From the IMG/VR virus record IMGVR_UViG_3300037067_021792: a stretch of 64,000 nt of DNA; one strand, written 5' to 3'. Of this stretch, positions 16,560 to 62,398 are shown piece by piece. The first letter of the stretch is position 1. Every line of letters starts with the position of its first letter. A program made the translations under genes and the position numbers. The notes beneath the pieces are model-generated. The model was not told where the DNA came from. It ran no database searches and worked only from the letters and a program-made list of their open reading frames with translations. Source of the DNA: a virus (Duplodnaviria; Caudoviricetes).

Positions 16560-16811
16560 ATGCCGTCTAAATCTTTGATTATTGAAGATGGGTACTTGAT
16601 TAATACCTGCAAATATAGACAGAGCGAATGCTGTAAGTACATTGTGGCCTTTCCGACGGGAGACGACGGGGCGGTAGAGTTTTTTTGTGTAAAAAATATT
16701 CCTGATCTAAGAAAAGTTATTGACAACCAATCCCAAATGAATGCCAAAGGGGACAATTGCGAAGGATTGATTTATGCGCCGCGGCAAAGCCCTGAGGGAA
16801 CATCGGAGTAA
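16560..16811 (+). CDS. small Cys-rich hypothetical protein
   Basis: 83 aa, CKY..ECCKY..FFC..NCEG. Confidence 0.6.
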   Translation: MPSKSLIIEDGYLINTCKYRQSECCKYIVAFPTGDDGAVEFFCVKNIPDLRKVIDNQSQMNAKGDNCEGLIYAPRQSPEGTSE

Positions 16812-18162
16812 ATTATTAGCTCGTCGCAAGGTTTTGTCTATTGCTGAAAGGCGCAGGATCTCGCAAGATAAGGCAGACAAGCGCAAACGATCTCATGTAG
16901 TTAATGCACCTTCCTATCATGGTTCGAACGTTCAATCTAATGATTCAATTGGACAATCGGATCGGCGAGTAATAAAAAATCGATCTCGACTAGAACAACA
17001 AAAAAGAAGAATAGCAAATAAGACTTCGAAATCTAGAATCTCGCAAGTTGCAATTCTGCCGTCATCATCTCCTTTAAAATTAGAATTCAAGCATTACAAT
17101 GACTATACTCCCAATAAACACATTAATATATGCCACGTCATAGAAAGTTTTGGCATGGGAGGTGCCCAAACCATGATGATGGAGTTGTTCAACGGACTAA
17201 ACAAATATTTTGGGGAATTTACAACTAATCATTTGGTAGGTATTACCAGAAATGGGAAAATTGCTCTTGCAAAAACCCTTGTCAATTCATATGGGTGCAA
17301 AGCAAACATGGTGGAGTCTCAAAATTTTCATCAATATTTAACCGAAAATTGTGTGGATGTGGTTCTTCATCATAGAATTGCGGTTTCGTCCTGTTTAAAA
17401 AAATATATTCCAGAGAAATGTAAATATGTTTTATTGAATCATACATGGAATAGTATGAATAGGGTTAGGGGGTTTACTCAATGTGACGCATATGTTTCTG
17501 TATGCAAATTTTTACACGATAGAACGATTTGGTTGGATGCCATCCATCCGACTAGAAGAATAATCATTTTGAATGGAATCGAAAATGATTATATTAGTAG
17601 TATAGAACCATTTGGGTTGTCGGGCGAATTTAAAACTGGCAGGTGCCACAGATTAGTTTCTGGGAAATTCAGGATAGATTCTCTTTCATGGATGGACAAA
17701 AAAATACACAAAATAGTTCCAGGATTTTCACACCATTTGTTGGGTTCAAACAAAGAAGCCAGACTAATGTCGCCTAAATATAAATCGTGGCTTACTTATC
17801 ACGGTCCTATAGAAGATCGGAATATGAAAATGTCAATTATTAAAGACCTAGATATTTATTTTTATGAAACCTTTAGTGACGAAGGAGCTAGCGTGGCGAT
17901 ACTTGAGTCCCTTGCTGCTGGTGTCCCTGTTCTTTGTAAGAAGTACGGCGGCTGCTCAGAACTCGTCGTGGAGGGAGAAAATGGATTTTTATGCAGAGAT
18001 AGGGACATATTTTGTCTTAGAATATCTCAGTTGGCGAAAAATTCAAAATATTTGGAGGAAATACGTGAAAAAACAGCAAAAGATTTTGATGCCCGACTGC
18101 ATGTTAGGCATACTGCCTGCAAATATGCACAATTATTTGAGTCCGTCGTAGATGCTAAATAA
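16774..18162 (+). CDS. GT4-family glycosyltransferase with Arg/Lys-rich N-terminal extension
   Basis: ICHVIESFGMGGAQ, ILNGIE, EGASVAILESLAAGVPV, ELVVEGENGFL. Confidence 0.88.
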   Translation: MRRGKALREHRSKLLARRKVLSIAERRRISQDKADKRKRSHVVNAPSYHGSNVQSNDSIGQSDRRVIKNRSRLEQQKRRIANKTSKSRISQVAILPSSSPLKLEFKHYNDYTPNKHINICHVIESFGMGGAQTMMMELFNGLNKYFGEFTTNHLVGITRNGKIALAKTLVNSYGCKANMVESQNFHQYLTENCVDVVLHHRIAVSSCLKKYIPEKCKYVLLNHTWNSMNRVRGFTQCDAYVSVCKFLHDRTIWLDAIHPTRRIIILNGIENDYISSIEPFGLSGEFKTGRCHRLVSGKFRIDSLSWMDKKIHKIVPGFSHHLLGSNKEARLMSPKYKSWLTYHGPIEDRNMKMSIIKDLDIYFYETFSDEGASVAILESLAAGVPVLCKKYGGCSELVVEGENGFLCRDRDIFCLRISQLAKNSKYLEEIREKTAKDFDARLHVRHTACKYAQLFESVVDAK

Positions 18163-18907
18163 GAATCCTAAATTTTCTATAATAACTGCTTGCTATAATA
18201 GTCATAAATATCTTCGAGATTGCGTGCGCAGTGTGATGTCTCAAAAATATTCTAATATAGAATGGATTATTGTGGATGATTGTAGTTCTGATGGTTCGGG
18301 TGATATTTTGAGAAAGTTTAACGATGATAGAATAAAGGTTCTTTTCAATAGTAGTCGCATGTTCTGCTCGTCTGCATATGCAAAAGCTCTAGAACATGCA
18401 TCTGGCGAAATATGCGGTGTTTTGGACGCAGATGATGCGATAGATAATAATGCTGTGGAAATTATTGTTCAGAAGTATATTGAGCATCCAGAGGTAGATT
18501 TTATTTATACTCAACATTATTGGTGCGATATTAAACTAAGACCAATACGTGGTGGAATCTCCTCTTTGCCGACTAAGGGACATTCTTTGGTTAGTGCCGC
18601 TATAGGGTCTAAAAAACATTGCTTTTCGCATTGGCGAACTTTTAGAAAATCAATTGCAAGTGCATCGGAGATTTTTCCGGAAGGATTAAAATATGCAGTT
18701 GATAAGAATATGGGGTTTGTTCTAGAGGAATTGGGACAAGGAGCTTTTTTGAACAAAAAACTATATTTATACAGGTATTATAATGGCAATATGTCCCTGC
18801 TAAATGCAAAGGACCAAAAATCAACGTGGTTAAAAATTGCCCACGAAATGAACAATAAAAGGAATAAAAACGGAGTTAGAGTAAGAAATATTCAGAGAAT
18901 ATCATGA
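18152..18907 (+). CDS. GT2-family glycosyltransferase (paralogue set A)
   Basis: SIITACYN, IVDDCSSDGS, LDADD, FSHWRTF, AVDK. Confidence 0.9.
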   Translation: MLNKNPKFSIITACYNSHKYLRDCVRSVMSQKYSNIEWIIVDDCSSDGSGDILRKFNDDRIKVLFNSSRMFCSSAYAKALEHASGEICGVLDADDAIDNNAVEIIVQKYIEHPEVDFIYTQHYWCDIKLRPIRGGISSLPTKGHSLVSAAIGSKKHCFSHWRTFRKSIASASEIFPEGLKYAVDKNMGFVLEELGQGAFLNKKLYLYRYYNGNMSLLNAKDQKSTWLKIAHEMNNKRNKNGVRVRNIQRIS

Positions 18908-19707
18908 TAGAATTTCATAAATACAGGACCAGAATTATTGATAAATATAATAACAAAGATAGTAAAGCATTTGTAATTTTGACTGCCTGTCATAACAAAT
19001 TTAAATATATAAAAGATTGCCTGAACTCTGTTATTTCTCAAGATTATAGGCCCATCTGCCTGACATGGGTGGATGACTCATCGACAGATAATAGCCTTCA
19101 ATATATTATTAATTGCAGATCATTACTTAGGGACAATGATATTGGATTTACCATTATATCAAATGTGTCTAAATCGGGTTGTTCAACGGCTTACCGTATT
19201 GCAGCGTCGCAGTCAATTGGGAGGTATTTCGGGGTTTTAGATGCAGATGATATGCTGATGCAACACTCGTGCTCTTTTGTTTCTAGTATTTATGAAAAAA
19301 ATAAAGACTTAACGTACTTATGGACTCAATTTCAAATATGTAATAGTGATATGGTATACAAAAAAAGTGGAATATCCCAGCCTCCCGATCCTGGCGAATC
19401 TATGTTGAGCATGGGAAAAGTTCATACTTTTTCTCATTGGAGAACATTCTCCAACAAGATAGACAAAGACACAGTATTTTGCTCAGGGCTAAAACGCGCG
19501 GTTGACAAGTATATGGGATATAAGCTTGAAGAAATGGGGCCGGGGGCGTTTGTTAATAAGGAATGCTATAAATATAGAGAAGGAGTGCGCAGCAGTGTGA
19601 CTAATAAAAATTCTAAACCAACATGGGAAATGGTAATCCGCGGGGCTAAGAAGCGAAGAATGATACATCATATAAATCCTTTTCCAATTAGGTCGATTAA
19701 TGTCTAA
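18904..19707 (+). CDS. GT2-family glycosyltransferase (paralogue set A)
   Basis: VDDSSTDNS, GVLDADD, FSHWRTFS, AVDKYMG. Confidence 0.9.
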   Translation: MIEFHKYRTRIIDKYNNKDSKAFVILTACHNKFKYIKDCLNSVISQDYRPICLTWVDDSSTDNSLQYIINCRSLLRDNDIGFTIISNVSKSGCSTAYRIAASQSIGRYFGVLDADDMLMQHSCSFVSSIYEKNKDLTYLWTQFQICNSDMVYKKSGISQPPDPGESMLSMGKVHTFSHWRTFSNKIDKDTVFCSGLKRAVDKYMGYKLEEMGPGAFVNKECYKYREGVRSSVTNKNSKPTWEMVIRGAKKRRMIHHINPFPIRSINV

Positions 19708-20494
19708 GAACAAATATATTAAAACCTTTTCTCTACTGACGTCTTGTCGTAATGGTGAAGAATATTTAGATTGTTGGTTTGATTCCATATTAAATCAGGG
19801 GTATAGGCCATTAGAAGTCGTTTTTGTAGATGACAGTTCTAGTGATAAGTCGGTTGATAAATTATGTTCTTTAAATGCAAAATTTCGCGATGCTGGCATC
19901 AACCTCCTAATATTGCGTCACAGGAAATTACTCAAATATGGTAGTGGGTTATTGACGGCAGCACAACATGCTACGGGGTATTTTATGGGAGTGCTAGATG
20001 TTGACGATGCTCTTACCCCCAAATCAGTGGAGCATGTTATGCGACTTTATCGTAAGTATGCCGACATTGGATACATATATACTCAATTTGAAATATGCGA
20101 TCAGGATATGAAAACTATTAGAATTGGTTTTAGTAGAGAGCCAAGAAAAAAAGAGACTATTCTATCAGAGGGTATTAAGTTTAATGAACATATTTACTCT
20201 CATTTTCGGACTTTTTCGAAGCGAATTCCGAACTATCTGGACATTTTTCCTAGAAAAGCTCGATATGCCATAGACCAATTTATGGGATTGTCATTAGAAG
20301 AAAAAGCAAAAGGGATATTTACCGACAGAGTGTGCTATAGATATAGAACGGGTCACTCTAATAGTATATCATCTAAATACGGAGGTCAACGAAGAGAATT
20401 TTGGCATAAATTGATGGGGCAATTTGCAGAGAATAGGGAAAGGAATAATATATCTGCATATAAAATTATACGGGTGGCGAATAAGGGAAAATGA
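19700..20494 (+). CDS. GT2-family glycosyltransferase (paralogue set A)
   Basis: VDDSSSDKS, GVLDVDD, YSHFRTFS, AIDQFMG. Confidence 0.9.
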   Translation: MSKNKYIKTFSLLTSCRNGEEYLDCWFDSILNQGYRPLEVVFVDDSSSDKSVDKLCSLNAKFRDAGINLLILRHRKLLKYGSGLLTAAQHATGYFMGVLDVDDALTPKSVEHVMRLYRKYADIGYIYTQFEICDQDMKTIRIGFSREPRKKETILSEGIKFNEHIYSHFRTFSKRIPNYLDIFPRKARYAIDQFMGLSLEEKAKGIFTDRVCYRYRTGHSNSISSKYGGQRREFWHKLMGQFAENRERNNISAYKIIRVANKGK

Positions 20495-21198
20495 TGGAAG
20501 TTAGTGTTATAACAACTCTATTTAATTATAAAAAATATATTGGAGAGGCAATTATCTCTTTTTTGGGACAAAATTTTTTGGACTCAGAAATGATAATTGT
20601 GGATGACGGCTCAAGAGATAACCCGTATTCTGTCATTAAAAAATTCGATAATAAAAGAATTAAATATATAAGACTTAAAAAGAATAGGGGATATTCTCAC
20701 GCAAAAAATGTTGGAATTATGTCCGCAAAATCTGAAATACTTGTCATGCTAGATGCAGATGATATGTTAACTACTAACAGTATATCTTGTAGATACAATA
20801 AAATACAGAAAGGGTACGATTTCGTGCATGGCCCAGCCATAGATTTAATTGATGGCAAAACGTCTAAATCCAGATTGTGGGAGAAATGGCTAAAAAAGCC
20901 TACATATAAACATGTTCACGCACAGGGTGTGATGCTTCGTAAAGACATACATAGAAAAATAGGATTATATGATGAGAAGTTACGATGCAAAAGTGACCGA
21001 GAAATGTGGGCCCGAATATTTAACTATGGTTTTAATATTGGCACTGTATCGGAATTTGTATCTTATTACAGAATACACAAAAACCAAATGAGCAGGTCGT
21101 CTCAGAAGTTATCTGAAAACAAAAAATTACAAAAAACTGTTTTAAGTCTAATTGAAAAGAGAAAAACAGACTTGTCTGGTGTTCGGATGTTGGATTAA
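20491..21198 (+). CDS. GT2-family glycosyltransferase
   Basis: SVITTLFN, IVDDGS, NRGYSHAKN, LDADD, GLYDE. Confidence 0.9.
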   Translation: MMEVSVITTLFNYKKYIGEAIISFLGQNFLDSEMIIVDDGSRDNPYSVIKKFDNKRIKYIRLKKNRGYSHAKNVGIMSAKSEILVMLDADDMLTTNSISCRYNKIQKGYDFVHGPAIDLIDGKTSKSRLWEKWLKKPTYKHVHAQGVMLRKDIHRKIGLYDEKLRCKSDREMWARIFNYGFNIGTVSEFVSYYRIHKNQMSRSSQKLSENKKLQKTVLSLIEKRKTDLSGVRMLD

Positions 21199-22112
21199 TG
21201 GTACTATATATTAATACAAATGGTTTTTCTGGTGGGCCAAAAGTTTTTAGAAAAAGACTAATTAATGGCTTTAATAAGTATAGTGATGTGCTGCTGGTTT
21301 CTGATCCTAAAAAATATTTTGACGCAGAAATTTGTTTTGTAAATATTAAAAACAAGTCTCACAAAAAGCCGTGCATACTTAGATTGGACGGATGTTATTA
21401 TGATAAAAAAAGAATAAAAATGAATAAATCTTTAAAAAAATCCATCCTTCTAAGCTCTGGAATAATATTTCAATCTAATTTTTCCAAGAAAATGTGTAAT
21501 AAATTTATTTCAACAAATATCAAAAAATCATGTGTAATTTATAATGGAATAGATTTTGATGAGATAAATGAAATTACTCCTAGCACAAATGTTGTTCCTG
21601 GCTCATTTGTGGCATGTGCCGGGTGGAGGAGTAATAAAAGACCCAATTCGATCGTGAGAGGGTTTTTGGCGGCGGGCATTTCAGAGCATTTATATATGAT
21701 TGGCGATGGCATCAAAAATCCGATTAAACATCCGAATATTCACTATCTCGGTAATTTGTCGTGGCGAAAAATTATTTCAATAATGAAATCTTGCAGCTAC
21801 CAAATTCATTTATGCCATATTGATTCATGTCCCAATGCAGTCGTAGAAGGACTGGCGTGCGGACTTAATATTTTATGCTCTAATCTTGGGGGTACTCCAG
21901 AAATTGTTAGATCAAACGGTGTTATTATGGATATTGATCGTTGGGATTTCCGACCAGTTGATAATATGAAGTTTGATAATTTAAAAGATGATGTAGTCGC
22001 CGATGGTATTAGTAGACTCAAAACAATTACCGTAAGAGCAGATAGACCAGATTTACACATCAAAAACATAGTTAAACAATATTTAGATGCAATATTAGAG
22101 ACTATTAAGTGA
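21198..22112 (+). CDS. GT4-like glycosyltransferase (paralogue set B)
   Basis: LRLDG, VIYNGID, WRSNKR, HLCHIDSCPNAVVEGLACG. Confidence 0.85.
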   Translation: MVLYINTNGFSGGPKVFRKRLINGFNKYSDVLLVSDPKKYFDAEICFVNIKNKSHKKPCILRLDGCYYDKKRIKMNKSLKKSILLSSGIIFQSNFSKKMCNKFISTNIKKSCVIYNGIDFDEINEITPSTNVVPGSFVACAGWRSNKRPNSIVRGFLAAGISEHLYMIGDGIKNPIKHPNIHYLGNLSWRKIISIMKSCSYQIHLCHIDSCPNAVVEGLACGLNILCSNLGGTPEIVRSNGVIMDIDRWDFRPVDNMKFDNLKDDVVADGISRLKTITVRADRPDLHIKNIVKQYLDAILETIK

Positions 22113-22930
22113 AAAAAACCGTACTAATTCAGTGCCCAAGAAAGTTTTGCACAGTAATACCCATATTTTGTAAAGAATGCCTTAAGCATGGCATATTTGA
22201 TAAAATTTACTGTGTCACCGATGGATCTATTTCGGTGAATGACAAAAGATGCCAAATAATAACACACGCAGATAAACAATTTTCTGCAAATCTGTTATTT
22301 GCTTTGGATTATATTGAAGAAGATGTTTTCCTGTTATGCTGCGAAGACCATATTATGATAGAACGACATAATAAAGAAGAGTTTGAACAAACCTGGAAAT
22401 TTATGATGGACAATCCTAATGTTGGGTCATTAAGACTGACCCATAACAGGAATGTAAAATTTTCTGGTAAATCTGATATCAACGTCAATTTCTCCAGCGT
22501 TGACAGTGGGCTTATTAAGGAACTTAGCAACAAATATTCCTATCTCTGGAGTGCGCAGCCGTCGTGGACCCAAAAAAAATATTTGTCAAGAATTCTGAAA
22601 GAAGGGGAAAACGCCTGGCAAGCGGAGGTCTATGGGTCAAAAAGAGCAAGAAAAGGACAATTTAAAAAATATTGTGTCACTAGAGATATCTATCACGCAA
22701 CCAACTTTTATAAGAAGGGCCAATACGTTAGGAGCCATTTTGTGGATTATTCTATAAAAAATAAACTAGGAATCAAGTTTACCCTTCCCGTTTTTGTGAA
22801 ACAGTTAGTGCCCATCGATGGTGTAGATACTATGATAAAAAGCATTGTTCCAGTGAGTGAGTATATACACGCAAAAAGAAAAGGTACTCTAAATACCATT
22901 TTATGGCAATACAGAATTGTTAAAAGATGA
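22109..22930 (+). CDS. putative glycosyltransferase (paralogue set C)
   Basis: FLLCCEDH, VGSLRL, ENAWQAEVYGSKRA shared with 50163..50897. Confidence 0.55.
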   Translation: MKKTVLIQCPRKFCTVIPIFCKECLKHGIFDKIYCVTDGSISVNDKRCQIITHADKQFSANLLFALDYIEEDVFLLCCEDHIMIERHNKEEFEQTWKFMMDNPNVGSLRLTHNRNVKFSGKSDINVNFSSVDSGLIKELSNKYSYLWSAQPSWTQKKYLSRILKEGENAWQAEVYGSKRARKGQFKKYCVTRDIYHATNFYKKGQYVRSHFVDYSIKNKLGIKFTLPVFVKQLVPIDGVDTMIKSIVPVSEYIHAKRKGTLNTILWQYRIVKR

Positions 22931-28608: not shown

Positions 28609-28611
28609 ACT

Positions 28612-54076: not shown

Positions 54077-54079
54077 ATT

Positions 54080-54907: not shown

Positions 54908-55596
54908 AAGAAAAAAGAAGCGAAATTGATAAACAGAGCAGAAAGATATCAGGATTAATGTCTGAACTGTCAATCCCGATAGACACATTTATAAATGACT
55001 TGCTTGATTTTTTAAATGAGGATAAATCCGGGCAAGAACCATATGCGATGTTGGTAAGAAATGCTTTTGGGGTTCAGAAAAATGGGTATGATGCCAATCC
55101 ATCCAAATGGTCTGCCCTTCTTCCTAGGATTGAAGAGATTCTGAGCATAGTTAATAACAAGGGTTCGATATTTGCAAAAATGATTTTTAATGAGAGCATG
55201 GGACATAGATACTCTGATTGCTGGTTTGAGACTAATGACCCAGCGTATGAAGCAAAGATGTCAAAATGCTATTTAGAAGGCTACAAACAATCTTGTAAAA
55301 TTAAATCATATAAAAACATTGATTCTACTATGTTTTGGCTCGCTGTGGCATACCATCGTATGGGAAGATTTGAAGAGGCAAGAAAATATTATAAAACGGT
55401 AGCCAATAGGGGAGGACCAAGATTTTTTAAATCAAGTTTTGTAAATAAGATATGGCTTTCGTTTATATATTCGCAAGATATGGTATGTCTTCCACCCTAC
55501 AAGGAAATTTCAAAAATTCTAGACAGAAAAAATCCATTGATACATCAACTATATATTGCTTTTAAGGCGGCATATGCCAACGGAATGATTGAATGA
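54883..55596 (+). CDS. TPR-like hypothetical protein (distant member of set E)
   Basis: ESMGHRYSD, KNIDSTMFWLAVAYHRMGRFEEARKYY. Confidence 0.6.
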   Translation: MQIPMASVKEKRSEIDKQSRKISGLMSELSIPIDTFINDLLDFLNEDKSGQEPYAMLVRNAFGVQKNGYDANPSKWSALLPRIEEILSIVNNKGSIFAKMIFNESMGHRYSDCWFETNDPAYEAKMSKCYLEGYKQSCKIKSYKNIDSTMFWLAVAYHRMGRFEEARKYYKTVANRGGPRFFKSSFVNKIWLSFIYSQDMVCLPPYKEISKILDRKNPLIHQLYIAFKAAYANGMIE

Positions 55597-55605: not shown

Positions 55606-56397
55606 ATGTATAAAAATGTGTTTGGTCCGGAACCTAAATATGAATTGTCGGTATCTCTCCAAAACAAATCTGCTCCTTCGTTTATCTGTATCGGTGGACC
55701 TTGTTCAATAGAAAGTTATGAACAGGTTATTCGGATATTTGATAGCATCGATAACAATGTGACCCATTTTCGAGGAGGAGTGTTTAGGGCCGGAACTTAT
55801 CCGGGCAAGAAATGGGGATGGCAATGGGACTTGTTAAAAATGTATCATGAAGAATCATTCAAAAGAGGGAAACCTAATATTGTGGATGTTTTAGATGTGA
55901 GGGACTTGGAAAAAATAGATCCCTACGCCGATGTGTTTCAGGTTGGAACTCGGCAAAGCCAGCATTATGCTCTTTTAAAAGAATTAGGAAAACAACAGAA
56001 GCCAATAGTGCTCAAACGCGGAACCCATCAAACATTAAATGAATTTATGGGGTCCTTAGAATATATATTACAAGGTGATAATTCCAATGTTATATTGTGT
56101 GAAAGGGGCAGCGTGTCATATTTGGATCATTCTAGATGGGAATTGTCCATTTCTATGATTGCCACGTTGAAACATATCACCAAATTCCCCATAATAGTAG
56201 ATAGCAGCCACGGCACAGGTAATCGCCAGATTGTTGGGCAAATGGCATATGCTGGTGTCGCGGCCGGGGCTGATGGAATACTGATTGAGACGCACTATTC
56301 GCCAAGTGACTCAATATCAGATTCGGAACAGTGCGTTTCATTGGATGAATTTAACGAAATATCTACTAACGCAAGGCGGATTAAGGATCTCCTATGA
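55606..56397 (+). CDS. divergent class I-beta DAHP synthase/KDO8P synthase family aldolase
   Basis: IGGPCSIES, FRGGVFRAGTYP, QVGTR, VLKRG, ILCERG, VDSSHGTG, GADGILIETH, SDSEQ. Confidence 0.88.
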   Translation: MYKNVFGPEPKYELSVSLQNKSAPSFICIGGPCSIESYEQVIRIFDSIDNNVTHFRGGVFRAGTYPGKKWGWQWDLLKMYHEESFKRGKPNIVDVLDVRDLEKIDPYADVFQVGTRQSQHYALLKELGKQQKPIVLKRGTHQTLNEFMGSLEYILQGDNSNVILCERGSVSYLDHSRWELSISMIATLKHITKFPIIVDSSHGTGNRQIVGQMAYAGVAAGADGILIETHYSPSDSISDSEQCVSLDEFNEISTNARRIKDLL

Positions 56398-57158
56398 ATG
56401 CCGGGATTATCATACTCTGTCGATTGCACTCCAAGAGACTTCCCAACAAAGCGCTGCTTCCACTGGGGAATTCCACCATAATAGATAAGTGTGTACTCAA
56501 TTGTCTAGAAAGTAATTCGGCACCGGTTATTGTTGCCACATCAACAAACTTTCAAGATGATGCTCTGGCTTCTCATATTTGTATGTTCCACAAAGATTGT
56601 GAGGTATTTCGAGGTTCTGAAATAGATGTTGCCCAGCGAATGCTAGATGCTGCTGATAAGTATGGTTGGGATACTATTGTCAGGGTTACAGGGGATTCCC
56701 CGTTCATTTCATTCGAGTTAATACGGCACCTGTTTCAGTGTGCACAAGTATTTGATTATATATACCTTACAAATGCTTGTTTGGGTACGAAACCAGAGAT
56801 TATGTCCGTTTCTGCTTTAAGAAAAATTATTTCAGAATTTGATTCATCTAAAAGTGAATACCTAACTTACTATTTTAAGAATAATCCCGATATGTTTCAT
56901 AGTATATCTATTGATACGCCGCAGGGTTTGTGCGGTGACTATAGGCTTAATGTTGATTATCCAGAAGACTACGAGCTAGCGAAATCTATATATAAATATG
57001 TAAGAAATGACAATCAGTGTGTGTCTCTACCCGAAGTTATAGAAATAGTAGAGAGATATAAATTGTATAATATAAACAAAAAATGCCATCCCCAGTACGT
57101 TTCGGGAAAATTATTTGATGAAATTATGGTTGCCACACAGAATCGGAGAGATAGATGA
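56394..57158 (+). CDS. SpsF/KdsB-like cytidylyltransferase
   Basis: CRLHSKRLPNKAL, VATS, FRGSEIDV, VRVTGDSPF, RLNVDYPEDY. Confidence 0.85.
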   Translation: MNAGIIILCRLHSKRLPNKALLPLGNSTIIDKCVLNCLESNSAPVIVATSTNFQDDALASHICMFHKDCEVFRGSEIDVAQRMLDAADKYGWDTIVRVTGDSPFISFELIRHLFQCAQVFDYIYLTNACLGTKPEIMSVSALRKIISEFDSSKSEYLTYYFKNNPDMFHSISIDTPQGLCGDYRLNVDYPEDYELAKSIYKYVRNDNQCVSLPEVIEIVERYKLYNINKKCHPQYVSGKLFDEIMVATQNRRDR

Positions 57159-58057
57159 GAATTAAGATAGAGTGCCCAACTTATTTTTTTGAGCATAATC
57201 TATGCGGGCATGCTATTGACAATGAGGATCCAGAAATAATGATATCTGATCCTGGATCATCGTACAAATACAATGAATCATATCTATCGAAATTTAGTAA
57301 TTTGAAAATACTGGCTACTCCATCTACTGGTGTTACCCATATAGATTTAGATTACTGCAGAAGAATGCAGATACCAGTTTTGAATTTACTAAGTAATAGG
57401 AAGCTATTAAATGAAATTTCTGCCTCCGCGGAATTCACCTGGCTTCATATATTGAATGCAGTAAGAAGATTTTCCGAATCTATTGAGGAAGTGAAAACTG
57501 GCAATTGGAGAAACAAGGAAAACGATCTGAGAGGACGAGAAATGAGGTACTTGTCTCTTGGTATCGTAGGGTTTGGTCGCATCGGTGGTAAGATATCATC
57601 ATTTGCGTCAGCTTTTGGAATGGAGAAAGTTTTTTACTATGATCCATACGTAGAATCGAATAAATGCACTAGAGTTTTACGTTTAGAACAAATATTTGGC
57701 TGTGATATTATTTTAATAAGTCCGTATTTGACAGATGAAACTAAAAATATGATAAGTAGCGATTTGATAAAGATATGTCGGAGGGGTTCTATTATAGTAA
57801 ACACATCGAGGGGGGAAGTAGTAGATGAAGATGCAATATGCGATGCGGTTGAATTGGGACAAATATATTACTGTGCCGATGTTGTTAAAGATGAACAAAA
57901 CATGAATAGATTTTTTCAATCTAGGCTATATCGGCTTTTAATGGAGGGAAAAGTGTGTATAACTCCCCACATTGCTGGAGCCACTGTTGAATCACAGCAA
58001 AAAGCCTTTGACGCAATCATGCTGATCATACAATCGCATTTAGGTCGAGAAAGATGA
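57155..58057 (+). CDS. D-isomer-specific 2-hydroxyacid dehydrogenase
   Basis: STGVTHID, AEFT, GFGRIG, YYDP, VNTSRGEVVDE, TPHIAG. Confidence 0.9.
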   Translation: MRIKIECPTYFFEHNLCGHAIDNEDPEIMISDPGSSYKYNESYLSKFSNLKILATPSTGVTHIDLDYCRRMQIPVLNLLSNRKLLNEISASAEFTWLHILNAVRRFSESIEEVKTGNWRNKENDLRGREMRYLSLGIVGFGRIGGKISSFASAFGMEKVFYYDPYVESNKCTRVLRLEQIFGCDIILISPYLTDETKNMISSDLIKICRRGSIIVNTSRGEVVDEDAICDAVELGQIYYCADVVKDEQNMNRFFQSRLYRLLMEGKVCITPHIAGATVESQQKAFDAIMLIIQSHLGRER

Positions 58058-58779
58058 ATAGAAATCTTGTTAAAAATAAAGAAATTAAAGATTTTTTTGA
58101 TGGGAAAATTGTATTTGATGTAGGGGCCGGTATGGGTCTGACTACTAAGATATTTACATCTTTAGGGTCAAAGGTAATTGCTGATACGTGCTATCCTGCT
58201 AAATATGGTCAGAATTTTTCTGATGCCATTCTGATAAATACCTATATATCGGATCATGATGGAGGAGAAGACCAATACATAAGTAATGCACCATTGGGAT
58301 ATCATCAGATGCCCAGCAAAACATTGGATACCCTAATTGTTGAATATGGAACTCCTATTTATATTAAAATTAGCACTGATGGATATGAAGATGTAGTTTT
58401 ACGAGGTTTAACTCATGCAGTTGGATGCATCAGTGCGGGGTATACAAAAGGGCGTAAAGATTGTTTTTGGGGAGTGTTGCGGTCGATAGAGAGACTGCAG
58501 TATAAAAAATTCATAATGGTTAATTGCGGGAAGGATATAGGAGGAAAATTTACCATAGGGTATCTACCGCCGAATATAAGTTATTGTAGAAAATTATTTA
58601 AGGAAATGCACTTAAATAAACATTATAGAGGGGATTTATTTGCATTCAACCCAGAAATTTTTCCAGAAAATGTAGCCATATTGTTGAGCGATTATTATAG
58701 TGGAAGAAAAGTTACTAACGCAAAAAAGAATATGGTTAACTACTCTAGTCTAAAGACCCGAAGATTATTAACAGTTTAG
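58054..58779 (+). CDS. FkbM-like methyltransferase (degenerate paralogue of 53402..54076)
   Basis: FDVGAGMG, ISDHDG, TLDTLI..YG.P.YIKISTDGYE, RGDL. Confidence 0.7.
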   Translation: MNRNLVKNKEIKDFFDGKIVFDVGAGMGLTTKIFTSLGSKVIADTCYPAKYGQNFSDAILINTYISDHDGGEDQYISNAPLGYHQMPSKTLDTLIVEYGTPIYIKISTDGYEDVVLRGLTHAVGCISAGYTKGRKDCFWGVLRSIERLQYKKFIMVNCGKDIGGKFTIGYLPPNISYCRKLFKEMHLNKHYRGDLFAFNPEIFPENVAILLSDYYSGRKVTNAKKNMVNYSSLKTRRLLTV

Positions 58780-58787
58780 GTGAAATT

Positions 58788-59804
58788 ATGTCATACAGTC
58801 CCTTTAGAGAAGGTTATTTTCCAATCAATAAAACTGGTTCTCCATTAAGTGGAGATGAGTTATATAAACAATATCGAGAACAGTATGAAAAATGGCCCAA
58901 AGAGCAAAAGCTAGGGGATTTTCCAACTCATCTTGATTTAGAGTTATCGAGCGCTTGTAATTTACATTGTCCAATGTGCCACACTGTTTATATTGGAGAT
59001 CCATCATTTAAAAAATATAAAGAGCAACGAATGAAAGATGCTTTAATGGATTTCTCTGTGTATCGGAAAGCCATTAATGAAGCTGTTAACTATGAGCATT
59101 TTTTTTCAATCAAATTAAACTATAGAGGAGAAAGCACTTTACATCCGGATATTGTAGAGATGATACAATATGCCAAAAACAAGGGCGTATATGATATTAT
59201 GCTAAATTCAAATGGGAACCATGACTTTGATTTGATAGAAAAAATGGTCGATGCTGGATTAACATGGTTGTCGATATCTTTAGATGCGATTAATCCGGAG
59301 ACATATAAAAAAATCAGAGCTGGAGGAGACTTCTTCATCGCATATGCTAATGCTATTAGCATGTGTAGATTTAGCGGAAAATTAAATTTGCAAGTTTCTT
59401 TCGTTCACCAGAAGAAAAATGATGCAGAAAAAGATGAATTTATAAAATTTTGGAACAAGATGCCCATAAATAAAATAACGATTGGAGATTTCTACAATCC
59501 AGCTGAATTCATCACTAATATATCAGCGTTTGAAGTTAAACAATATCACAAAATGCAGAAATTTACATGCCCGCAGTTATGGCAGAGAATTTTGATAATG
59601 TGTGATGGGAAAATATTCCCCTGTTGTCACGCATTTGATGAGCCAGATGATTTATATTTAGGAAGATTTCCTGAGACATCTATCAAAGAGGCTTGGGATT
59701 CGGAAAAATTGAAGAAAATTAGAGAGATTCATATTTCTGGGGATTACTCTGAAATTAAAACATGCTCAACATGTGCTTATCCTAAAACATCGAAGGATGA
59801 ATAA
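58788..59804 (+). CDS. radical SAM/SPASM (twitch) domain protein
   Basis: CNLHCPMC, RGES.LHP, CPQLW...DGKIFPCC, CSTC. Confidence 0.9.
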   Translation: MSYSPFREGYFPINKTGSPLSGDELYKQYREQYEKWPKEQKLGDFPTHLDLELSSACNLHCPMCHTVYIGDPSFKKYKEQRMKDALMDFSVYRKAINEAVNYEHFFSIKLNYRGESTLHPDIVEMIQYAKNKGVYDIMLNSNGNHDFDLIEKMVDAGLTWLSISLDAINPETYKKIRAGGDFFIAYANAISMCRFSGKLNLQVSFVHQKKNDAEKDEFIKFWNKMPINKITIGDFYNPAEFITNISAFEVKQYHKMQKFTCPQLWQRILIMCDGKIFPCCHAFDEPDDLYLGRFPETSIKEAWDSEKLKKIREIHISGDYSEIKTCSTCAYPKTSKDE

Positions 59805-60472
59805 TGTTACCAGATGTGAGTGTTGTAATTACATGTTATAATTATGGAAGGTATCTAGAGAGATGCCTGCGAAGTGTTTATAATCAAGAGCACACCAAAC
59901 GATTTTCTTATGAAATTATTATTGTAAATGATTGTAGCATAGATAATACCGAATCCATTATAAGACAGTTTGAAAGTAAGTTCGATAATTTAATATACAT
60001 ATATAATATTAAAAATCAGGGAATTTCCCGATCTTGCAATAGTGCAATTCAATCTAGTAATGGAAGATATATTGTTCGAATAGATGCCGATGATTATGTA
60101 TCAAGACACTTCTTATTTTTGTTGAAATTTGCACTGGATAAAAATAGAAGATATCAGGCTTTTTGTTGTGATTATATAGAAGTGGACGATTTTGAAAATA
60201 ACCTACGATTTGTTTCTCCAACCGAAGAGCAAATTGCCTGTGCGGTGATGTATAGAAAAGAATATATGATAGATGTTGGATTATATGATGAAGAATTTGA
60301 ATATCGGGAAGGGCATGAATTAAATAAGAGGTTTCGAGACAAGTATGAAATAGGACATCTTCCTATTCCTTTGTATTTTGCCAGGAAACATGATAATAAT
60401 CGATCTGGAAATATCGAAAAAATATCTGAGTATGATCAAAAATTGTCCCTAGATAAACAGGAGAACCCATGA
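59804..60472 (+). CDS. GT2-family glycosyltransferase
   Basis: SVVITCYN, IVNDCSID, NQGIS, RIDADD, VGLYDE. Confidence 0.92.
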   Translation: MLPDVSVVITCYNYGRYLERCLRSVYNQEHTKRFSYEIIIVNDCSIDNTESIIRQFESKFDNLIYIYNIKNQGISRSCNSAIQSSNGRYIVRIDADDYVSRHFLFLLKFALDKNRRYQAFCCDYIEVDDFENNLRFVSPTEEQIACAVMYRKEYMIDVGLYDEEFEYREGHELNKRFRDKYEIGHLPIPLYFARKHDNNRSGNIEKISEYDQKLSLDKQENP

Positions 60473-61458
60473 AAGCTATTGTTACTGGTGGATGCGGTTT
60501 TATTGGATTTAATTTGTGTAAAAAATTAATTGAAACAGAATATAGCAATATTCAGGTTATCGATGATTTATCAACAGGATTTAGGCAAAACAAAATAAAT
60601 GGGGTAGATTACCACTATATCTCTATTCTTAATCACGATTTCAAGAATATAATTCATGCATTTAAGCCGGACGTAATTTTTCATATAGCAGCAGTTCCAC
60701 GAGTTTCTTATTCTGTTGAATTTCCAGTTGAAACACTGAAGGCCAATGTTCTTGCTACGGTTGAAGTTTTAGATGCTGTGCGGACCACAAAGAAAAAGCA
60801 GGCTAGAGTCATATTTAGCTCTAGCAGCTCAGTATATGGTGGGGCCGATCATTTGCCAACCCCCGAATCTTGTCCAAGAAACCCCAAATCGCCATATGCT
60901 CTCGAAAAAGCCGAGAGTGAAATGTGGTTATCTATGTACGCGTCTCTATACGGAGTAGATGCTGTAAGTCTTCGCTATTTTAATGTCTTTGGTCCGCGCT
61001 CTAGGTGGGGCGGAGGATACTCGACTGTTTTGAGCGCTTGGCTATATTCGTTGTATATAGATAAAAAAATAGTTCCATATTTAGAGGGAGACGGAAAACA
61101 ATCGAGAGATTTTTGCTACGTAGATAACGTGGTTCAGGCCAATATTTTTGCTGCAAGACATTCCAACAAATTTGCCGGTGAAGTTTATAATATAGCTCAG
61201 GGCGAAAGGCATTCATTACTGGAGTGTAAAGAAATTATAGAAAAAATCTCTGGTCAAGCACTAAATTTAGAATATAAACCAGCGCGAATTGGCGATGTAG
61301 ATCATACATTAGCAGATATATCAGCAGCCAGAAGGGATTTGGGGTATAATCCATCGGTTGATTTTGAATCTCAAGTAAAAGAAATGGCTGATTGGTATAA
61401 GGGAGAATATACCCGTGAAGTCTCCGCTGGCAAAACTATTACTTCTGTATTACAATAA
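60469..61458 (+). CDS. NAD-dependent epimerase (UDP-hexose/HexNAc 4-epimerase-like)
   Basis: TGGCGFIG, DDLSTG, SSSSVYG, SPYALEK, RYFNVFGP, GDGKQSRDF. Confidence 0.92.
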   Translation: MKAIVTGGCGFIGFNLCKKLIETEYSNIQVIDDLSTGFRQNKINGVDYHYISILNHDFKNIIHAFKPDVIFHIAAVPRVSYSVEFPVETLKANVLATVEVLDAVRTTKKKQARVIFSSSSSVYGGADHLPTPESCPRNPKSPYALEKAESEMWLSMYASLYGVDAVSLRYFNVFGPRSRWGGGYSTVLSAWLYSLYIDKKIVPYLEGDGKQSRDFCYVDNVVQANIFAARHSNKFAGEVYNIAQGERHSLLECKEIIEKISGQALNLEYKPARIGDVDHTLADISAARRDLGYNPSVDFESQVKEMADWYKGEYTREVSAGKTITSVLQ

Positions 61459-62398
61459 AGTAACAAATGAAGCATTTAACAAACTTGCTCTGCATAATCA
61501 CGAATTTGAAATAATTCCATTTAACCTCGGGCAATTCGGGGATAAAATGGATATTTTAGACGAAAAAACAGTAGAAAAAATCCTCTTACAATATATGCCC
61601 TTCGATGCTGCCGTTGTCGGGGATGTATTTTGGCCAACGGGACAATATATTTGCAAATGGTGCAGAAAGCATGGCGTTAAAAGCTTTTTTTTGCAACATG
61701 GGCAGTGGATTTATGTTACTAATAAGAAGAACCCAGAATTTTTACCCAATTGCACGTTTCTATACGGTGATAACGTAAAAGACATGGTGAGTTTATGGCC
61801 CTACTCTGCTCGATCAAAAGTCGCGGTTACGGGCAGCCCCAAATATGACAATATCATTCCAAATCCGTCGGGGTCATATGTTTATTTCTGTCCACCAGTT
61901 ATGTACGAAAAAGTTAATGGCACTCATCGTAGCAATCCATTATCTTCAAGGTTATTAAGAACTTTGTCGGGTATAGATAAAAAAGTAGAATTACTAATTC
62001 AACCGCATTATCGAGAGGATAATATTTCTGGATTAAAACAGATATTTAGTGCTGCAGAATTCTCTGATCCTAAAAATGATCCAATTTGTCTCATCAAAAA
62101 ATCATACGCAGTGTTAACTCACCGTGATTCTACAACTGTGCTCGATGCTATCGCGTGTGGTAAAAAATCTTTTTTGATCAATTTTAAAAACCAGTATAGA
62201 TCATTTTACAAAACTGGGTATTTCGGCGATTTTGCAGTAGAGAATGGATGGCCAGATGAGTGCAAAGAACGGATACAGACTTATGTAGCAGGTGAATTGC
62301 CTGATAATTATGAAATACTATCTAAGCCATACTTATATTTGGGAAATTCATCTGAAAAAATATTTGCCGTCATGAAGGAGTTACTAAATGTCTCATAG
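61415..62398 (+). CDS. GT-B fold transferase (TagF/sialyltransferase-like), candidate ulosonate transferase
   Basis: FFLQHG, VTGSPKYD, QPHYRE, DSTTVLDA..CGK. Confidence 0.55.
   Translation: MKSPLAKLLLLYYNKVTNEAFNKLALHNHEFEIIPFNLGQFGDKMDILDEKTVEKILLQYMPFDAAVVGDVFWPTGQYICKWCRKHGVKSFFLQHGQWIYVTNKKNPEFLPNCTFLYGDNVKDMVSLWPYSARSKVAVTGSPKYDNIIPNPSGSYVYFCPPVMYEKVNGTHRSNPLSSRLLRTLSGIDKKVELLIQPHYREDNISGLKQIFSAAEFSDPKNDPICLIKKSYAVLTHRDSTTVLDAIACGKKSFLINFKNQYRSFYKTGYFGDFAVENGWPDECKERIQTYVAGELPDNYEILSKPYLYLGNSSEKIFAVMKELLNVS

What the first reader, a model, noticed from the sequence alone, without database searches (positions are those of the whole stretch)
16560..62398. ~46-kb glycan factory with no export or polymerisation machinery in a phage-like replicon
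Seen: about 47 nearly contiguous genes, including roughly 17 GT-like proteins, nucleotide-sugar SDRs, RmlC, heptose kinase, three ThDP systems, three radical SAMs and six methyltransferase-like genes. None of these ORFs looks polytopic. There is no Wzx/Wzy/Wzz, Wzm/Wzt, KpsMT or WbaP/WecA initiating transferase. Known: cellular O-antigen, capsule and S-layer loci usually include such membrane components, whereas giant eukaryotic viruses glycosylate their own virion proteins with soluble enzymes. Inference: this is a cytoplasmic, virus-encoded system that decorates virion proteins (or less likely DNA or a host receptor) with a complex, heavily methylated, branched glycan. That would be an exceptionally large glycosylation locus for a phage.
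Basis: partly seen in the sequence, partly recalled or inferred. Interest (0 to 1): 0.9.

Follow-up and report, generated by a model that had tools for sequence, protein, structure and literature searches.

The report
Huge-phage soluble glycan factory island
An uncultured giant bacteriophage devotes about a fifth of its 268-kb genome to roughly 50 soluble enzymes that make and join rare sugars with no membrane export parts, and its relatives do the same, so these phages probably sugar-coat something inside the infected cell, most plausibly their own particles, though no target has been shown.

Summary
Window 16774-62398 carries 49 tightly packed ORFs. These include 13 supported glycosyltransferases (a 14th is weak), 5 sugar SDRs, RmlC, a heptose-kinase-like PfkB, three ThDP systems, three radical SAMs and six methyltransferase-like genes. 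None is polytopic.

The window lies mid-way in a 268,137-bp contig. Its flanks carry giant LamG/Kelch/PA14 proteins, split DnaE, DnaB, RecA, IF3, ThyX and DnaK. IMG/VR virus records of 499 kb (terminal repeats) and 548 kb (CheckV 100%) are colinear with it. The 548-kb record has PHROG tail and virion hits.

The system starts further upstream than reported. A NeuB/HAD/CMP-transferase module with two Maf/CstII-fold transferases (2632-7014), an AmmeMemoRadiSam-type radical SAM and a core of 5-6 GTs with TPR-like partners recur in most of 31 related loci; the tailoring arm varies.

No PGT, WecA, Wzx or Wzy family matches any of the four IMG/VR relatives. No polytopic protein lies within -56 to +18 kb of the window.

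Virion-protein glycosylation is the best reading (about 0.45) but is untested. Host-envelope remodelling through host machinery remains a serious rival. This is a new, very large variant of known phage and giant-virus glycan clusters. The scan has noted smaller Maf-like phage modules on other DNA.

The parts
2632..4884 (+). Two stripped-down Maf/CstII-fold (MptE-like) transferases (2632-3384, 4156-4884) flanking an unknown 263-aa ORF
   Evidence: Pfam PF01973: 32 and 42 bits. AF2 model of 4156-4884 has pLDDT 96.8. Best Foldseek hit is Maf glycosyltransferase 5MU5 (E 1.8e-6), then MptE HPPK and CstII. The two are paralogues, 26% identical.
4881..7014 (+). Ulosonic-acid module: CMP-sugar synthetase (4881-5615), NeuB-type synthase (5603-6496), HAD phosphatase (6496-7014)
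   Evidence: Pfam CTP_transf_3, NeuB, Hydrolase_3. NCBIfam NeuB_NnaB 172 bits, below cut-off. Colinear in G002, G004 and several metagenome loci.
14744..15694 (+). AmmeMemoRadiSam-type radical SAM enzyme, a conserved neighbour just upstream of the GT core
   Evidence: TIGR04337: 206.6 bits against a cut-off of 220. Found upstream of the GT core in 10 of 31 loci and in G002 and G004.
16774..24820 (+). Core glycosyltransferase block: GT4 with a basic N-terminal extension (16774), four GT2 (18152, 18904, 19700, 20491), GT4-like 21198 and 22927, unknown 22109, divergent GT-B 23837
   Evidence: Pfam; hhalign. Homologues among 31 related loci: 20491 in 29, 22927 in 26, 21198 in 25, 18904 in 18 and 19700 in 5.
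24813..28608 (+). Unknown 142-aa ORF, HldA-like sugar kinase (25238), methyltransferase (26209), PanB-type hydroxymethyltransferase (26892), unknown 260-aa ORF (27826)
   Evidence: PanB scores above both NCBIfam cut-offs. 24813, 25238 and 26209 are conserved in L009 at 45-57%.
28612..31607 (+). GDP-mannose-4,6-dehydratase-type SDR interrupted by an intein with a LAGLIDADG endonuclease, and a GDP-fucose-synthase-like SDR
   Evidence: Pfam GDP_Man_Dehyd, Intein_splicing, LAGLIDADG_3. NCBIfam Fcl 195 bits, below cut-off.
31601..37979 (+). ThDP branching block: PDH-E1 alpha/beta-like pair, ALS/YerE-like enzyme, split transketolase, aldo-keto reductase
   Evidence: Pfam. The same block occurs in L010, L042, L061 and G002. 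Analogy to AviB1/B2, YerE and Pau7 is from PMC4425429.
37976..39870 (+). Methyltransferase-like ORF and an Fcl/GalE-like SDR
   Evidence: Pfam. The SDR is 69-72% identical in L009, L010 and G002.
39884..41092 (-). TnpB (IS605 OrfB) inserted in the island
   Evidence: Pfam OrfB_IS605, Cas12f1-like_TNB, HTH_OrfB_IS605.
41150..47138 (.). GT2 (41150-41884, minus strand), RmlC (41932), GT2-like 42432, B12 radical SAM 43135, unknown-domain/SDR fusion 44628, GT2-like 46335
   Evidence: Pfam; paralogy; hhalign GT2 87%. 44628 is two separate genes in L009.
47167..52562 (.). FkbM methyltransferase, unknown 47822, B12 radical SAM 48766 (single C-terminal hydrophobic helix), unknown 50163 (paralogue of 22109), unknown 50837 (minus strand), GT-B-like 51630
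   Evidence: Pfam; hydrophobicity scan; paralogy.
52559..55596 (+). Three TPR-like all-helical paralogues (52559, 54080, 54883) around an FkbM methyltransferase (53402)
   Evidence: AF2 pLDDT 92.1, all-alpha. Atlas and Foldseek point to TPR/14-3-3-like repeats, weakly. Homologues of 54080 in 16 and of 52559 in 9 of 31 related loci, next to GT genes.
55606..58057 (+). Second ulosonic-acid module: DAHP-synthase-I-beta-fold aldolase with an altered substrate motif, KdsB-like cytidylyltransferase, D-2-hydroxyacid dehydrogenase
   Evidence: Where P. furiosus DAHPS reads KPRTS, this protein and its L009 homologue read RAGTY.
58054..62398 (+). FkbM-like ORF, radical SAM/SPASM enzyme, GT2, GalE/RmlB-like SDR, possible GT (61415)

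Best explanation
This is a phage-encoded glycosylation system that appears to work entirely in the cytoplasm, and it is a standing feature of a clade of huge (about 250-550 kb) tailed phages.

Conserved front end:
- It makes a CMP-activated ulosonic acid (NeuB-type synthase, HAD phosphatase, cytidylyltransferase).
- It carries two Maf/CstII-fold transferases, an AmmeMemoRadiSam-type radical SAM, and five to eight soluble GT-A/GT-B transferases that travel with TPR-like helical proteins.

Variable back end (inferred chemistry): it supplies rare donor sugars.
- GDP-6-deoxyhexoses, through the Gmd- and Fcl-like enzymes.
- A heptose, through the HldA-like kinase.
- Two-carbon-branched octoses, through the PDH-E1-like pair, the YerE-like enzyme, the split transketolase and the aldo-keto reductase.
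- C-methyl groups from the B12 radical SAMs and O-methyl groups from the FkbM-type enzymes.
- A second ulosonic acid from the DAHPS-fold aldolase with its cytidylyltransferase.

Inference: no lipid-carrier primer enzyme, flippase, polymerase or ligase is encoded in the 138 kb read here or in the relatives. The glycan is therefore most likely built directly on a cytoplasmic acceptor, most plausibly the phage's own structural proteins such as the giant fibre-type proteins or head decoration. The variable arm would then diversify the coat between strains.

Shown: gene content, absence of membrane parts, conservation, phage identity. Inferred: the sugar chemistry and the acceptor.
For: Gene content.

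No polytopic protein:
- In the window.
- In the flanks from -56 kb to +8 kb. From +8 to +18 kb the called genes carry no membrane or glycan-export family.
- In 31 related loci.

Relatives lack the membrane machinery:
- The four IMG/VR relatives, two rated complete, have no match to Bac_transf, Glycos_transf_4, Polysacc_synt or Wzy_C, while the control genomes do.
- In the whole 548-kb G002 the only larger multi-TM ORF is a glutamate-receptor-type ion channel. The small TM ORFs match no Pfam family, apart from one sub-threshold UbiA hit.

Phage identity:
- Flanking genes.
- Giant-protein homologues in IMG/VR records, one with terminal repeats.
- PHROG minor-tail and virion-structural hits in G002.

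Conservation:
- Colinear island at 45-72% identity in a 252.6-kb contig.
- About 80 kb of island in G002.
- Same order in G004 at 49% GC.
- Core frequencies across loci.

Protein-directed hints:
- Maf (5MU5) is the best fold match for 4156-4884. Maf enzymes put nonulosonic acids and Kdo on flagellin Ser/Thr (10.1101/2020.06.03.131540; PMC11339370).
- TPR-like partners travel with the core GTs.
- A GT2-GT4-GT2 set lies directly after the giant protein genes.
- G002 has a GT9-methyltransferase-GT4 fusion protein about 3 kb from virion-structural-type genes.

Branching chemistry: PMC4425429.
Against: - No glycoprotein, acceptor motif or timing data exist.
- The giant proteins are only moderately Ser/Thr-enriched (18% against 12%) and have no Ser/Thr-rich tracts.
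- The island sits between the replication and nucleotide-metabolism genes, not inside the structural module.
- The Maf-like proteins lack the N- and C-terminal domains of true Maf. They resemble CstII, which acts on lipooligosaccharide, nearly as well.
- Soluble GT2/GT4 enzymes are also what extend undecaprenyl-linked O-units in cells.
- Only 138 of 268 kb of this phage's own contig was read. The whole-genome test was done on relatives.
- No terminase or major capsid gene was identified: Terminase_6N and Phage_sheath_1 matched none of the four relatives, and no capsid family was searched.
Confidence: 0.45

Rival explanations
1. Host-envelope remodelling. The phage enzymes make rare donor sugars and extend a lipid-linked primer made by the host's own WecA/WbaP-type enzyme. 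Host flippase, polymerase or ABC transporter and ligase then export the product. This changes the infected cell's O-antigen, capsule or S-layer glycan, for example to block superinfection or to keep progeny from re-adsorbing.
For: - This is the published reading of the closest phage precedent. Those are cyanophage clusters with SDR paralogues, cupin isomerases, PfkB kinases and several GT families that vary between related phages (PMC7824862).
- The same enzyme classes occur here.
- The tailoring arm varies between relatives as O-antigen loci do.
- Two-carbon-branched octoses are known in Gram-negative polysaccharides (PMC4753412 abstract).
- CstII, a lipooligosaccharide sialyltransferase, is also a fold match for 4156-4884.
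Against: - Wzx flippases prefer their cognate O-unit (PMC6436433 abstract). A novel glycan made by 13 or more GTs would have to pass foreign host machinery.
- The GT core and ulosonic-acid module are colinear core genes across phages of 31-49% GC. That fits a particle function better than adaptation to one host's envelope.
- No GtrA-like or other small flippase was recognised in G002.
Confidence: 0.3
2. A soluble or lipid-anchored glyco-metabolite. The enzymes would build a free, heavily methylated, branched oligosaccharide or glycolipid, in the manner of orthosomycin-type antibiotics, used against competitors or as a compatible solute or store.
For: - AviB1/B2-type E1 pairs, an aldo-keto reductase, many methyltransferases and soluble GTs are the toolkit of avilamycin and paulomycin pathways (PMC4425429).
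- Iyer et al. raise a secondary-metabolite reading for a second cyanophage cluster.
Against: - No aglycone pathway (PKS, NRPS), acyltransferase set or efflux pump was seen in the Pfam scans of the window ORFs or in the called genes of the 138 kb read.
- The TPR-like partners and Maf-fold enzymes are not explained by this reading.
Confidence: 0.08
3. DNA hypermodification. The transferases would glycosylate modified bases in phage DNA to evade restriction.
For: - Phage GTs can build diverse glycans on 5hmC-type bases (10.1101/2023.12.21.572611).
- DNA methylases, an Ogg-type glycosylase and a PurA-like gene lie between the two halves of the system.
Against: - No TET/5mYOX or hydroxymethylase domain was found in the window.
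- ThyX and dCMP deaminase indicate ordinary thymidylate supply.
- The PurA-like gene is a PurA, not a PurZ.
- The DNA-metabolism genes are not conserved neighbours of the GT core in relatives.
- Thirteen GTs plus branched and methylated sugars far exceed any DNA glycan I know of (my own knowledge, not checked here).
Confidence: 0.05
4. Not a virus. The contig would be a cellular fragment or a giant plasmid-like element, and the island an ordinary surface-glycan locus whose membrane genes lie elsewhere.
For: - No terminase or major capsid gene was identified by me. Pfam Terminase_6N and Phage_sheath_1 gave nothing in the relatives.
- One relative of the giant protein is labelled as an archaeal MAG protein.
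Against: - The 138 kb read has no ribosomal or housekeeping operon. It has inteins, three Dam-type methylases, a split DnaE, IF3, giant LamG/Kelch/PA14 proteins and a uniform strand bias.
- Relatives are IMG/VR virus records. One has direct terminal repeats and two are rated 100% complete.
- G002 has PHROG tail and virion-structural hits.
Confidence: 0.04

Closest known systems
Cyanophage 'LPS/capsule' sugar clusters (P-SSM2 type; Iyer et al. 2021, PMC7824862)
   Same: Phage-borne sets of SDR epimerase/dehydratase paralogues, cupin sugar isomerases, PfkB kinases and several GT families. They have no reported membrane export genes and vary between related phages.
   Different: - Those clusters have about 15 genes, plus a second cluster of 8-12. 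Here there are 49 ORFs in 46 kb, a 6-gene upstream module, and about 80 kb in relative G002.
- This island adds two ulosonic-acid pathways, Maf-fold transferases, three ThDP systems, PanB, B12 radical SAMs and TPR-like partners.
- No homologue of the marker GT 23837 or of the Maf-like gene exists in 50,697 deposited phage records.
Giant-virus virion glycosylation clusters (Mimivirus clades, CroV, chloroviruses; PMC9614988)
   Same: Virus-encoded soluble pathways for bacterial-type rare sugars (including Kdo in CroV) plus GTs and sugar methyltransferases. They decorate virion fibrils or capsid in the cytoplasm, and cluster content is clade-specific.
   Different: - Those viruses infect eukaryotes, and the largest cluster cited has 21 genes.
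- Here the host is a prokaryote and the virus is tailed.
- Virion glycans are proven there and not here.
- Only distant (26-30%) relatives of GT 23837 occur on giant-virus MAG contigs.
Mycobacteriophage virion glycosylation (Freeman et al. 2023, as cited in PMC12619734)
   Same: Phage-encoded soluble GTs that glycosylate capsid and tail-tube subunits inside the cell.
   Different: - As I recall (not checked here), those systems have only a few GTs, placed by the structural genes, and use host donor sugars.
- Here a full sugar-synthesis factory sits away from the structural module.
Maf flagellin nonulosonic-acid O-glycosyltransferases (PDB 5MU5; 10.1101/2020.06.03.131540; PMC11339370)
   Same: - The catalytic fold of 4156-4884 matches Maf best.
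- The gene is linked to a NeuB-type synthase and a CMP-sugar synthetase.
- Maf acts in the cytoplasm on a protein acceptor.
   Different: - The phage proteins are about 245 aa against about 630 aa. They lack the flanking domains of Maf.
- There is no flagellin, and the acceptor is unknown.
Two-carbon branched-sugar pathways (AviB1/AviB2, Pau11/Pau12/Pau7, YerE; PMC4425429)
   Same: A PDH-E1 alpha/beta-like pair, an aldo-keto reductase and an ALS/YerE-like ThDP enzyme sit next to 4,6-dehydratase-type SDRs.
   Different: - Both branching routes plus a split transketolase occur together here.
- Activity and substrates are untested.
- I found no virus with such enzymes in the papers searched.

Membership tests
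Cellular Wzx/Wzy- or ABC-dependent surface-polysaccharide locus | Initiating phosphoglycosyl transferase (WbaP/Bac_transf or WecA/Glycos_transf_4) | tested here: not met
   No such domain in the Pfam scans of the 70 main window ORFs. No match in the four IMG/VR relatives, two of them complete, while 9-12 of 14 control genomes match.
Cellular Wzx/Wzy- or ABC-dependent surface-polysaccharide locus | Polytopic flippase, polymerase, ligase or ABC-2 permease | tested here: not met
   - No ORF with 3 or more hydrophobic segments on the coding strand of the window or of the flanks scanned, -56 to +8 kb. No membrane family among the called genes to +18 kb.
- Polysacc_synt and Wzy_C are absent from G001-G004.
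- The G002 whole-genome scan finds only an ion channel.
- ABC2_membrane, STT3 and PMT families were not searched by HMM.
Tailed-phage genome | Virion structural and packaging genes | tested here: inconclusive
   - On this contig I read only giant LamG/Kelch/PA14 proteins.
- In colinear relative G002: PHROG minor tail protein (8.8e-15) and virion structural proteins.
- Terminase_6N and Phage_sheath_1 gave no hit in G001-G004, and no capsid family was searched.
- IMG/VR lists the relatives as viruses, one with terminal repeats.
Maf flagellin glycosyltransferase | MptE-like/GT42-like catalytic domain | tested here: met
   PF01973: 42 bits against a cut-off of 34.6 for 4156-4884, and 32 bits (below cut-off) for 2632-3384. 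Best fold match is 5MU5.
Maf flagellin glycosyltransferase | Full three-domain architecture (about 600 aa) with acceptor-binding flanking domains, and a flagellin substrate | tested here: not met
   The proteins are 242-250 aa. The model aligns to only part of the 632-residue 5MU5 chain (TM by target 0.24). No flagellin gene was seen.
Cyanophage-type phage sugar/GT cluster | Phage-borne SDR paralogues, a sugar kinase, a cupin isomerase and multiple GT families without export genes | tested here: met
   compared with the description in PMC7824862. The HIGH-type nucleotidyltransferase named there was not found here. Only CTP_transf_3 enzymes are present.
KDO8P synthase / DAHP synthase (for 55606-56397) | Family score above the curated cut-off, and the aldose-phosphate-binding motif | tested here: not met
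   - Best NCBIfam scores are 246 against 335 and 225 against 268 for the DAHPS models, and 79 against 242 for KDO8PS.
- The segment aligned to KPRTS of P. furiosus DAHPS reads RAGTY, and this is conserved in L009.
- The role of that motif is from my own knowledge.

The most novel reading that the evidence does not exclude
A whole clade of huge phages builds a complex glycan coat on its own particles: a phage counterpart of the Mimivirus fibril glycocalyx. A conserved core (ulosonic acid, Maf-fold enzymes, GT set, TPR-like adaptors) lays the foundation. A hypervariable 30-60 kb tailoring arm, with branched octoses and C- and O-methylation, makes strain-specific 'virion serotypes'. It would be by far the largest glycosylation system known in any virus.
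Probability: 0.4. Interest if true: 0.85.

Novelty: new variant of a known kind. Interest (0 to 1): 0.72.

Why it matters
Phage-encoded glycosylation is known only from small systems: DNA glucosylation, serotype conversion, a few capsid GTs, and 15-gene cyanophage clusters. Here about 50 genes (46 kb, or 60 kb with the upstream module, and about 80 kb in a relative) form a conserved feature of a huge-phage clade. That is roughly a fifth of the genome, so the product must matter greatly to the phage.

If the target is the virion, huge phages would have converged with giant eukaryotic viruses on a self-made glycan coat. That bears on adsorption, particle stability in sediments and escape from recognition.

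If the target is the host envelope, it would be the most elaborate case of viral surface reprogramming.

Either way, the island is a compact source of unexplored sugar chemistry in a viral genome:
- two routes to branched sugars plus a split transketolase;
- a DAHPS-fold aldolase with a changed substrate motif;
- PanB in a sugar context;
- B12 radical SAMs.

Tried and rejected
- **Whole genome:** none is held for this window. The contig was walked with exact-protein look-ups from -56 kb to +18 kb only. The structural module further upstream was not reached.
- **GenBank phages:** megablast of window 1-20000 found no match. tblastn of DnaE, GT 23837, E1 alpha, GT2 20491 and the Maf-like protein gave only distant or host-like hits, or none.
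- **IMG/VR with the PurA-like protein:** nothing.
- **Structural-gene searches in the relatives:** Terminase_6N and Phage_sheath_1 gave no hit. PHROGs on the giant proteins gave no hit.
- **PurZ reading of 10906-12075:** rejected. It scores 256 bits to PurA structures against 57 bits to PurZ.
- **Moraphage lineage (PMC12619734):** rejected as the same clade, because moraphages use PolB while this phage has DnaE.
- **Composite transposon bounded by the two TnpB genes:** rejected. They are only 28% identical.
- **Ser/Thr-rich acceptor tracts in the giant proteins:** none found.
- **Strain microdiversity:** none to measure. The Logan copy is identical to the ENA copy.
- **Unknown ORFs:** sequence search of the Maf-like protein against the PDB found nothing useful. 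22109, 24813, 27826 and 47822 stay unassigned after Pfam, NCBIfam and hhalign.

Full report
**What is there**

The window is about 36% GC. Almost all genes lie on the + strand and the GC skew is steady.

Window 16774-62398 holds 49 ORFs that mostly overlap or abut. Pfam, NCBIfam, paralogy and profile comparison give the following.
- **Glycosyltransferases:** 13 supported. They are 16774, 18152, 18904, 19700, 20491, 21198, 22927, 23837, 41150(-), 42432, 46335, 51630 and 59804. 61415 is a weak 14th.
- **SDRs:** five. They include a Gmd-type dehydratase split by an intein with a LAGLIDADG endonuclease, and three Fcl-like enzymes.
- **Single enzymes:** RmlC, an HldA-like kinase, a bona fide PanB-type enzyme, an aldo-keto reductase and a D-2-hydroxyacid dehydrogenase.
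- **ThDP systems:** three (PDH-E1 alpha/beta-like pair, ALS/YerE-like enzyme, split transketolase).
- **Radical SAMs:** two B12-binding and one SPASM type.
- **Methyltransferase-like genes:** five or six.
- **Second ulosonic-acid module:** a DAHPS-fold aldolase with a KdsB-like cytidylyltransferase.
- **Others:** three TPR-like paralogues and an inserted TnpB.

A hydrophobicity scan finds no polytopic protein. Only 48766 has a single strong C-terminal hydrophobic helix. The count of 17 GTs is slightly high on present evidence.

**The system is larger than reported**

Upstream, 2632-7014 encodes two MptE-like proteins, a CMP-sugar synthetase, a NeuB-type synthase and a HAD phosphatase.

An AlphaFold model of 4156-4884 (pLDDT 96.8) matches the Maf flagellin glycosyltransferase 5MU5 best. 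The archaeal MptE kinase and the CstII sialyltransferase follow.

14744-15694 is an AmmeMemoRadiSam-type radical SAM. It scores 206.6 bits against a cut-off of 220.

**The replicon**

Exact-protein look-ups place the window at 76124-140123 of a 268,137-bp metagenome contig. A 270,634-bp copy also exists.
- **Upstream, to -56 kb:**
  - giant proteins of 2722 aa (PA14), 2258 aa and 3107 aa (LamG/Kelch), followed by a GT2-GT4-GT2 set;
  - exonucleases and a helicase with an intein;
  - three Dam-type methylases, IF3, DnaB, primase and UDG;
  - a split DnaE, RecA, SpoVS and UvrD.
- **Downstream, to +18 kb:** IscA, a 597-aa ORF, dCMP deaminase, ThyX, a split topoisomerase IA, DnaK and a clamp loader.

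No ribosomal operon and no polytopic protein appear in these 138 kb. The hydrophobicity scan covers -56 to +8 kb, and the last 10 kb rests on the called genes' Pfam labels.

The 3107-aa protein has 30-49% identical relatives on contigs of 200-557 kb. It also has relatives in IMG/VR virus records:
- G001: 147 kb.
- G002: 547,943 bp, CheckV 100%.
- G004: 498,568 bp, direct terminal repeats.

G002 was fetched whole. 84% of its ORFs lie on one strand. It is colinear with the window from UvrD through the whole glycan system. Proteins near its giant-protein block hit PHROG families for minor tail and virion structural proteins.

I did not identify a terminase or major capsid gene. Pfam Terminase_6N and Phage_sheath_1 found nothing. 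I conclude this is a huge tailed phage, with a small residual doubt.

**Conservation**

The divergent GT-B 23837 belongs to a small family of 68 clusters among 5.8 billion. Members lie on contigs of up to 256 kb, and one comes from a Tara 0.1-0.22 µm size fraction.

An alignment of this family recovered 112 metagenome loci (80 kept) and 6 IMG/VR loci. Findings from the 31 loci of 9 kb or more:
- A backbone recurs: NeuB, HAD, DUF1257, AmmeMemo-type radical SAM, GT4 16774, GT2 18904/19700, GT4 21198, GT2 20491, sometimes 22109, then 23837 and 22927.
- Homologue counts out of 31: 20491 in 29, 22927 in 26, 21198 in 25, TPR-like 54080 in 16 and 52559 in 9.
- What follows the backbone differs from locus to locus. 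About half of all neighbouring ORFs have no homologue in the window.

Other relatives:
- A 252.6-kb contig (L009) carries a colinear island at 45-72% identity. It lacks PanB, the ALS-like enzyme, the transketolase and the AKR.
- L010, L042, L061 and G002 carry the ThDP block.
- G002's island spans about 313-392 kb, roughly 80 kb.
- G004, at 49% GC, keeps the order Maf-like x2, CMP-synthetase, NeuB, HAD, radical SAM, GT core.

The front end is thus an old core module of the clade. The back end is a shuffled tailoring arm.

**Missing membrane steps**

Pfam Bac_transf, Glycos_transf_4, Polysacc_synt and Wzy_C match none of G001-G004. They match 9-13 of 14 control genomes.

In all of G002 the only ORF over 170 aa with four hydrophobic segments is a glutamate-receptor-type ion channel. 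Six small ORFs with 3-4 segments match no Pfam family apart from one sub-threshold UbiA hit, and none matches GtrA. No ORF with four or more segments occurs in the 31 loci.

It is also negative genome-wide in the four IMG/VR relatives, two of them rated complete.

**Likely chemistry (inferred)**

- The Gmd- and Fcl-like SDRs and RmlC would give 4-keto-6-deoxy and 6-deoxy sugars.
- PDH-E1-like pairs (AviB1/B2, Pau11/12) and the ThDP flavoenzyme YerE are the two described routes to two-carbon sugar branches. An aldo-keto reductase (Pau7) reduces the branch keto group (PMC4425429). This island has both routes, an AKR and a split transketolase.
- The B12 radical SAMs and the FkbM-type enzymes would add C- and O-methyl groups.
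- The DAHPS-fold aldolase reads RAGTY where P. furiosus DAHPS has KPRTS, and this is conserved in L009. Its aldose substrate probably differs from that of both DAHPS and KDO8PS.
- No hexose-1-phosphate nucleotidyltransferase was found, so host GDP-mannose or dTDP-glucose is presumably the input.

**Target**

For a protein, probably virion, acceptor:
- Maf is the best fold match, and Maf enzymes O-glycosylate flagellin with nonulosonic acids or Kdo in the cytoplasm (10.1101/2020.06.03.131540; PMC11339370).
- TPR-like helical proteins are conserved with the core GTs.
- Further GTs sit directly after the giant protein genes.
- G002 carries a GT9-methyltransferase-GT4 fusion about 3 kb from virion-structural-type genes.
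- The system has core-gene status across phages of very different GC.

Against:
- There is no direct evidence.
- The giant proteins have no Ser/Thr-rich tracts.
- The island is not in the structural module.
- The Maf-like proteins lack Maf's flanking domains and also resemble CstII.
- The published reading of the nearest phage precedent is host-surface modification (PMC7824862).

I put virion or cytoplasmic-protein glycosylation at about 0.45. Host-envelope remodelling through host machinery gets 0.30, a free glyco-metabolite 0.08, DNA glycosylation 0.05 and a non-viral element 0.04.

**Comparison and novelty**

- The largest phage sugar cluster I found described has 15 genes, plus a second of 8-12 (PMC7824862).
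- Giant-virus glycogene clusters reach 21 genes (PMC9614988).
- The huge-phage survey paper does not mention sugars or glycans in its main text (PMC7162821).
- Deposited phage genomes (50,697 records) hold no homologue of GT 23837 or of the Maf-like enzyme.

This is a new and much larger variant of a known kind, not a new kind.

Earlier notes of this scan report smaller Maf-like or nonulosonic-acid modules next to capsid or fibre genes in other phages. I did not test those notes. They fit the virion reading but are not independent evidence.

Noticed in passing
window 28612-30705: The Gmd-type dehydratase is interrupted by an intein carrying a LAGLIDADG endonuclease (Pfam Intein_splicing and LAGLIDADG_3). 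The L009 and G002 homologues are intein-free and of normal length.
   Followed up: partly
window 10906-12075: A 389-aa adenylosuccinate-synthetase homologue. It scores 256 bits to bacterial PurA structures but only 57 bits to phage PurZ, so it is not a 2-aminoadenine (Z-base) marker.
   Followed up: yes
window 55606-56397: A DAHP-synthase-I-beta-fold aldolase sits next to a CMP-transferase. The segment that aligns with KPRTS of P. furiosus DAHPS reads RAGTY, and this is conserved in L009. It may be an ulosonic-acid synthase with a new substrate.
   Followed up: partly
window 7299-8516 (+), 39884-41092 (-), and L129 about 8000-8300 (-): Two divergent TnpB genes (28% identical) lie in or near the system. 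A short minus-strand ORF 79% identical to part of the first one lies about 8 kb beyond the window end. Contigs of an independent assembly break at both TnpB sites.
   Followed up: partly
window 16774-18162: The first core GT4 has an N-terminal extension of about 250 aa. Its first 40 residues are rich in Arg and Lys, and its function is unknown.
   Followed up: no
window 13203-13538: A 111-aa ORF matches only the C-terminal part of the N6_N4 DNA methylase domain. It looks like a truncated or split methylase.
   Followed up: no
window 14744-15694 and relatives: An AmmeMemoRadiSam-type radical SAM enzyme is a conserved neighbour just upstream of the GT core. No AMMECR1 or Memo domain was detected in the window by Pfam.
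   Followed up: partly
G002 (L113:9552-10637, minus strand): The 548-kb relative encodes a 361-aa glutamate-receptor-type ligand-gated ion channel (solute-binding domain plus ion channel).
   Followed up: partly
G002 (L128:2430-5810, minus strand): A 1126-aa fusion of GT9 (heptosyltransferase type), SAM methyltransferase and GT4 domains lies about 3 kb from the virion-structural-type genes of the relative.
   Followed up: partly
L094, L096 (IMG/VR giant-virus MAG contigs): Distant (28-30%) relatives of GT 23837 occur on contigs binned as giant-virus MAGs with 23-27% GC.
   Followed up: no
L005/L006 and L129 (flanks of the window): The phage encodes IF3, DnaK, SpoVS, a split DnaE, a helicase with an intein, and a topoisomerase IA split by an AAA+ gene.
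   Followed up: no
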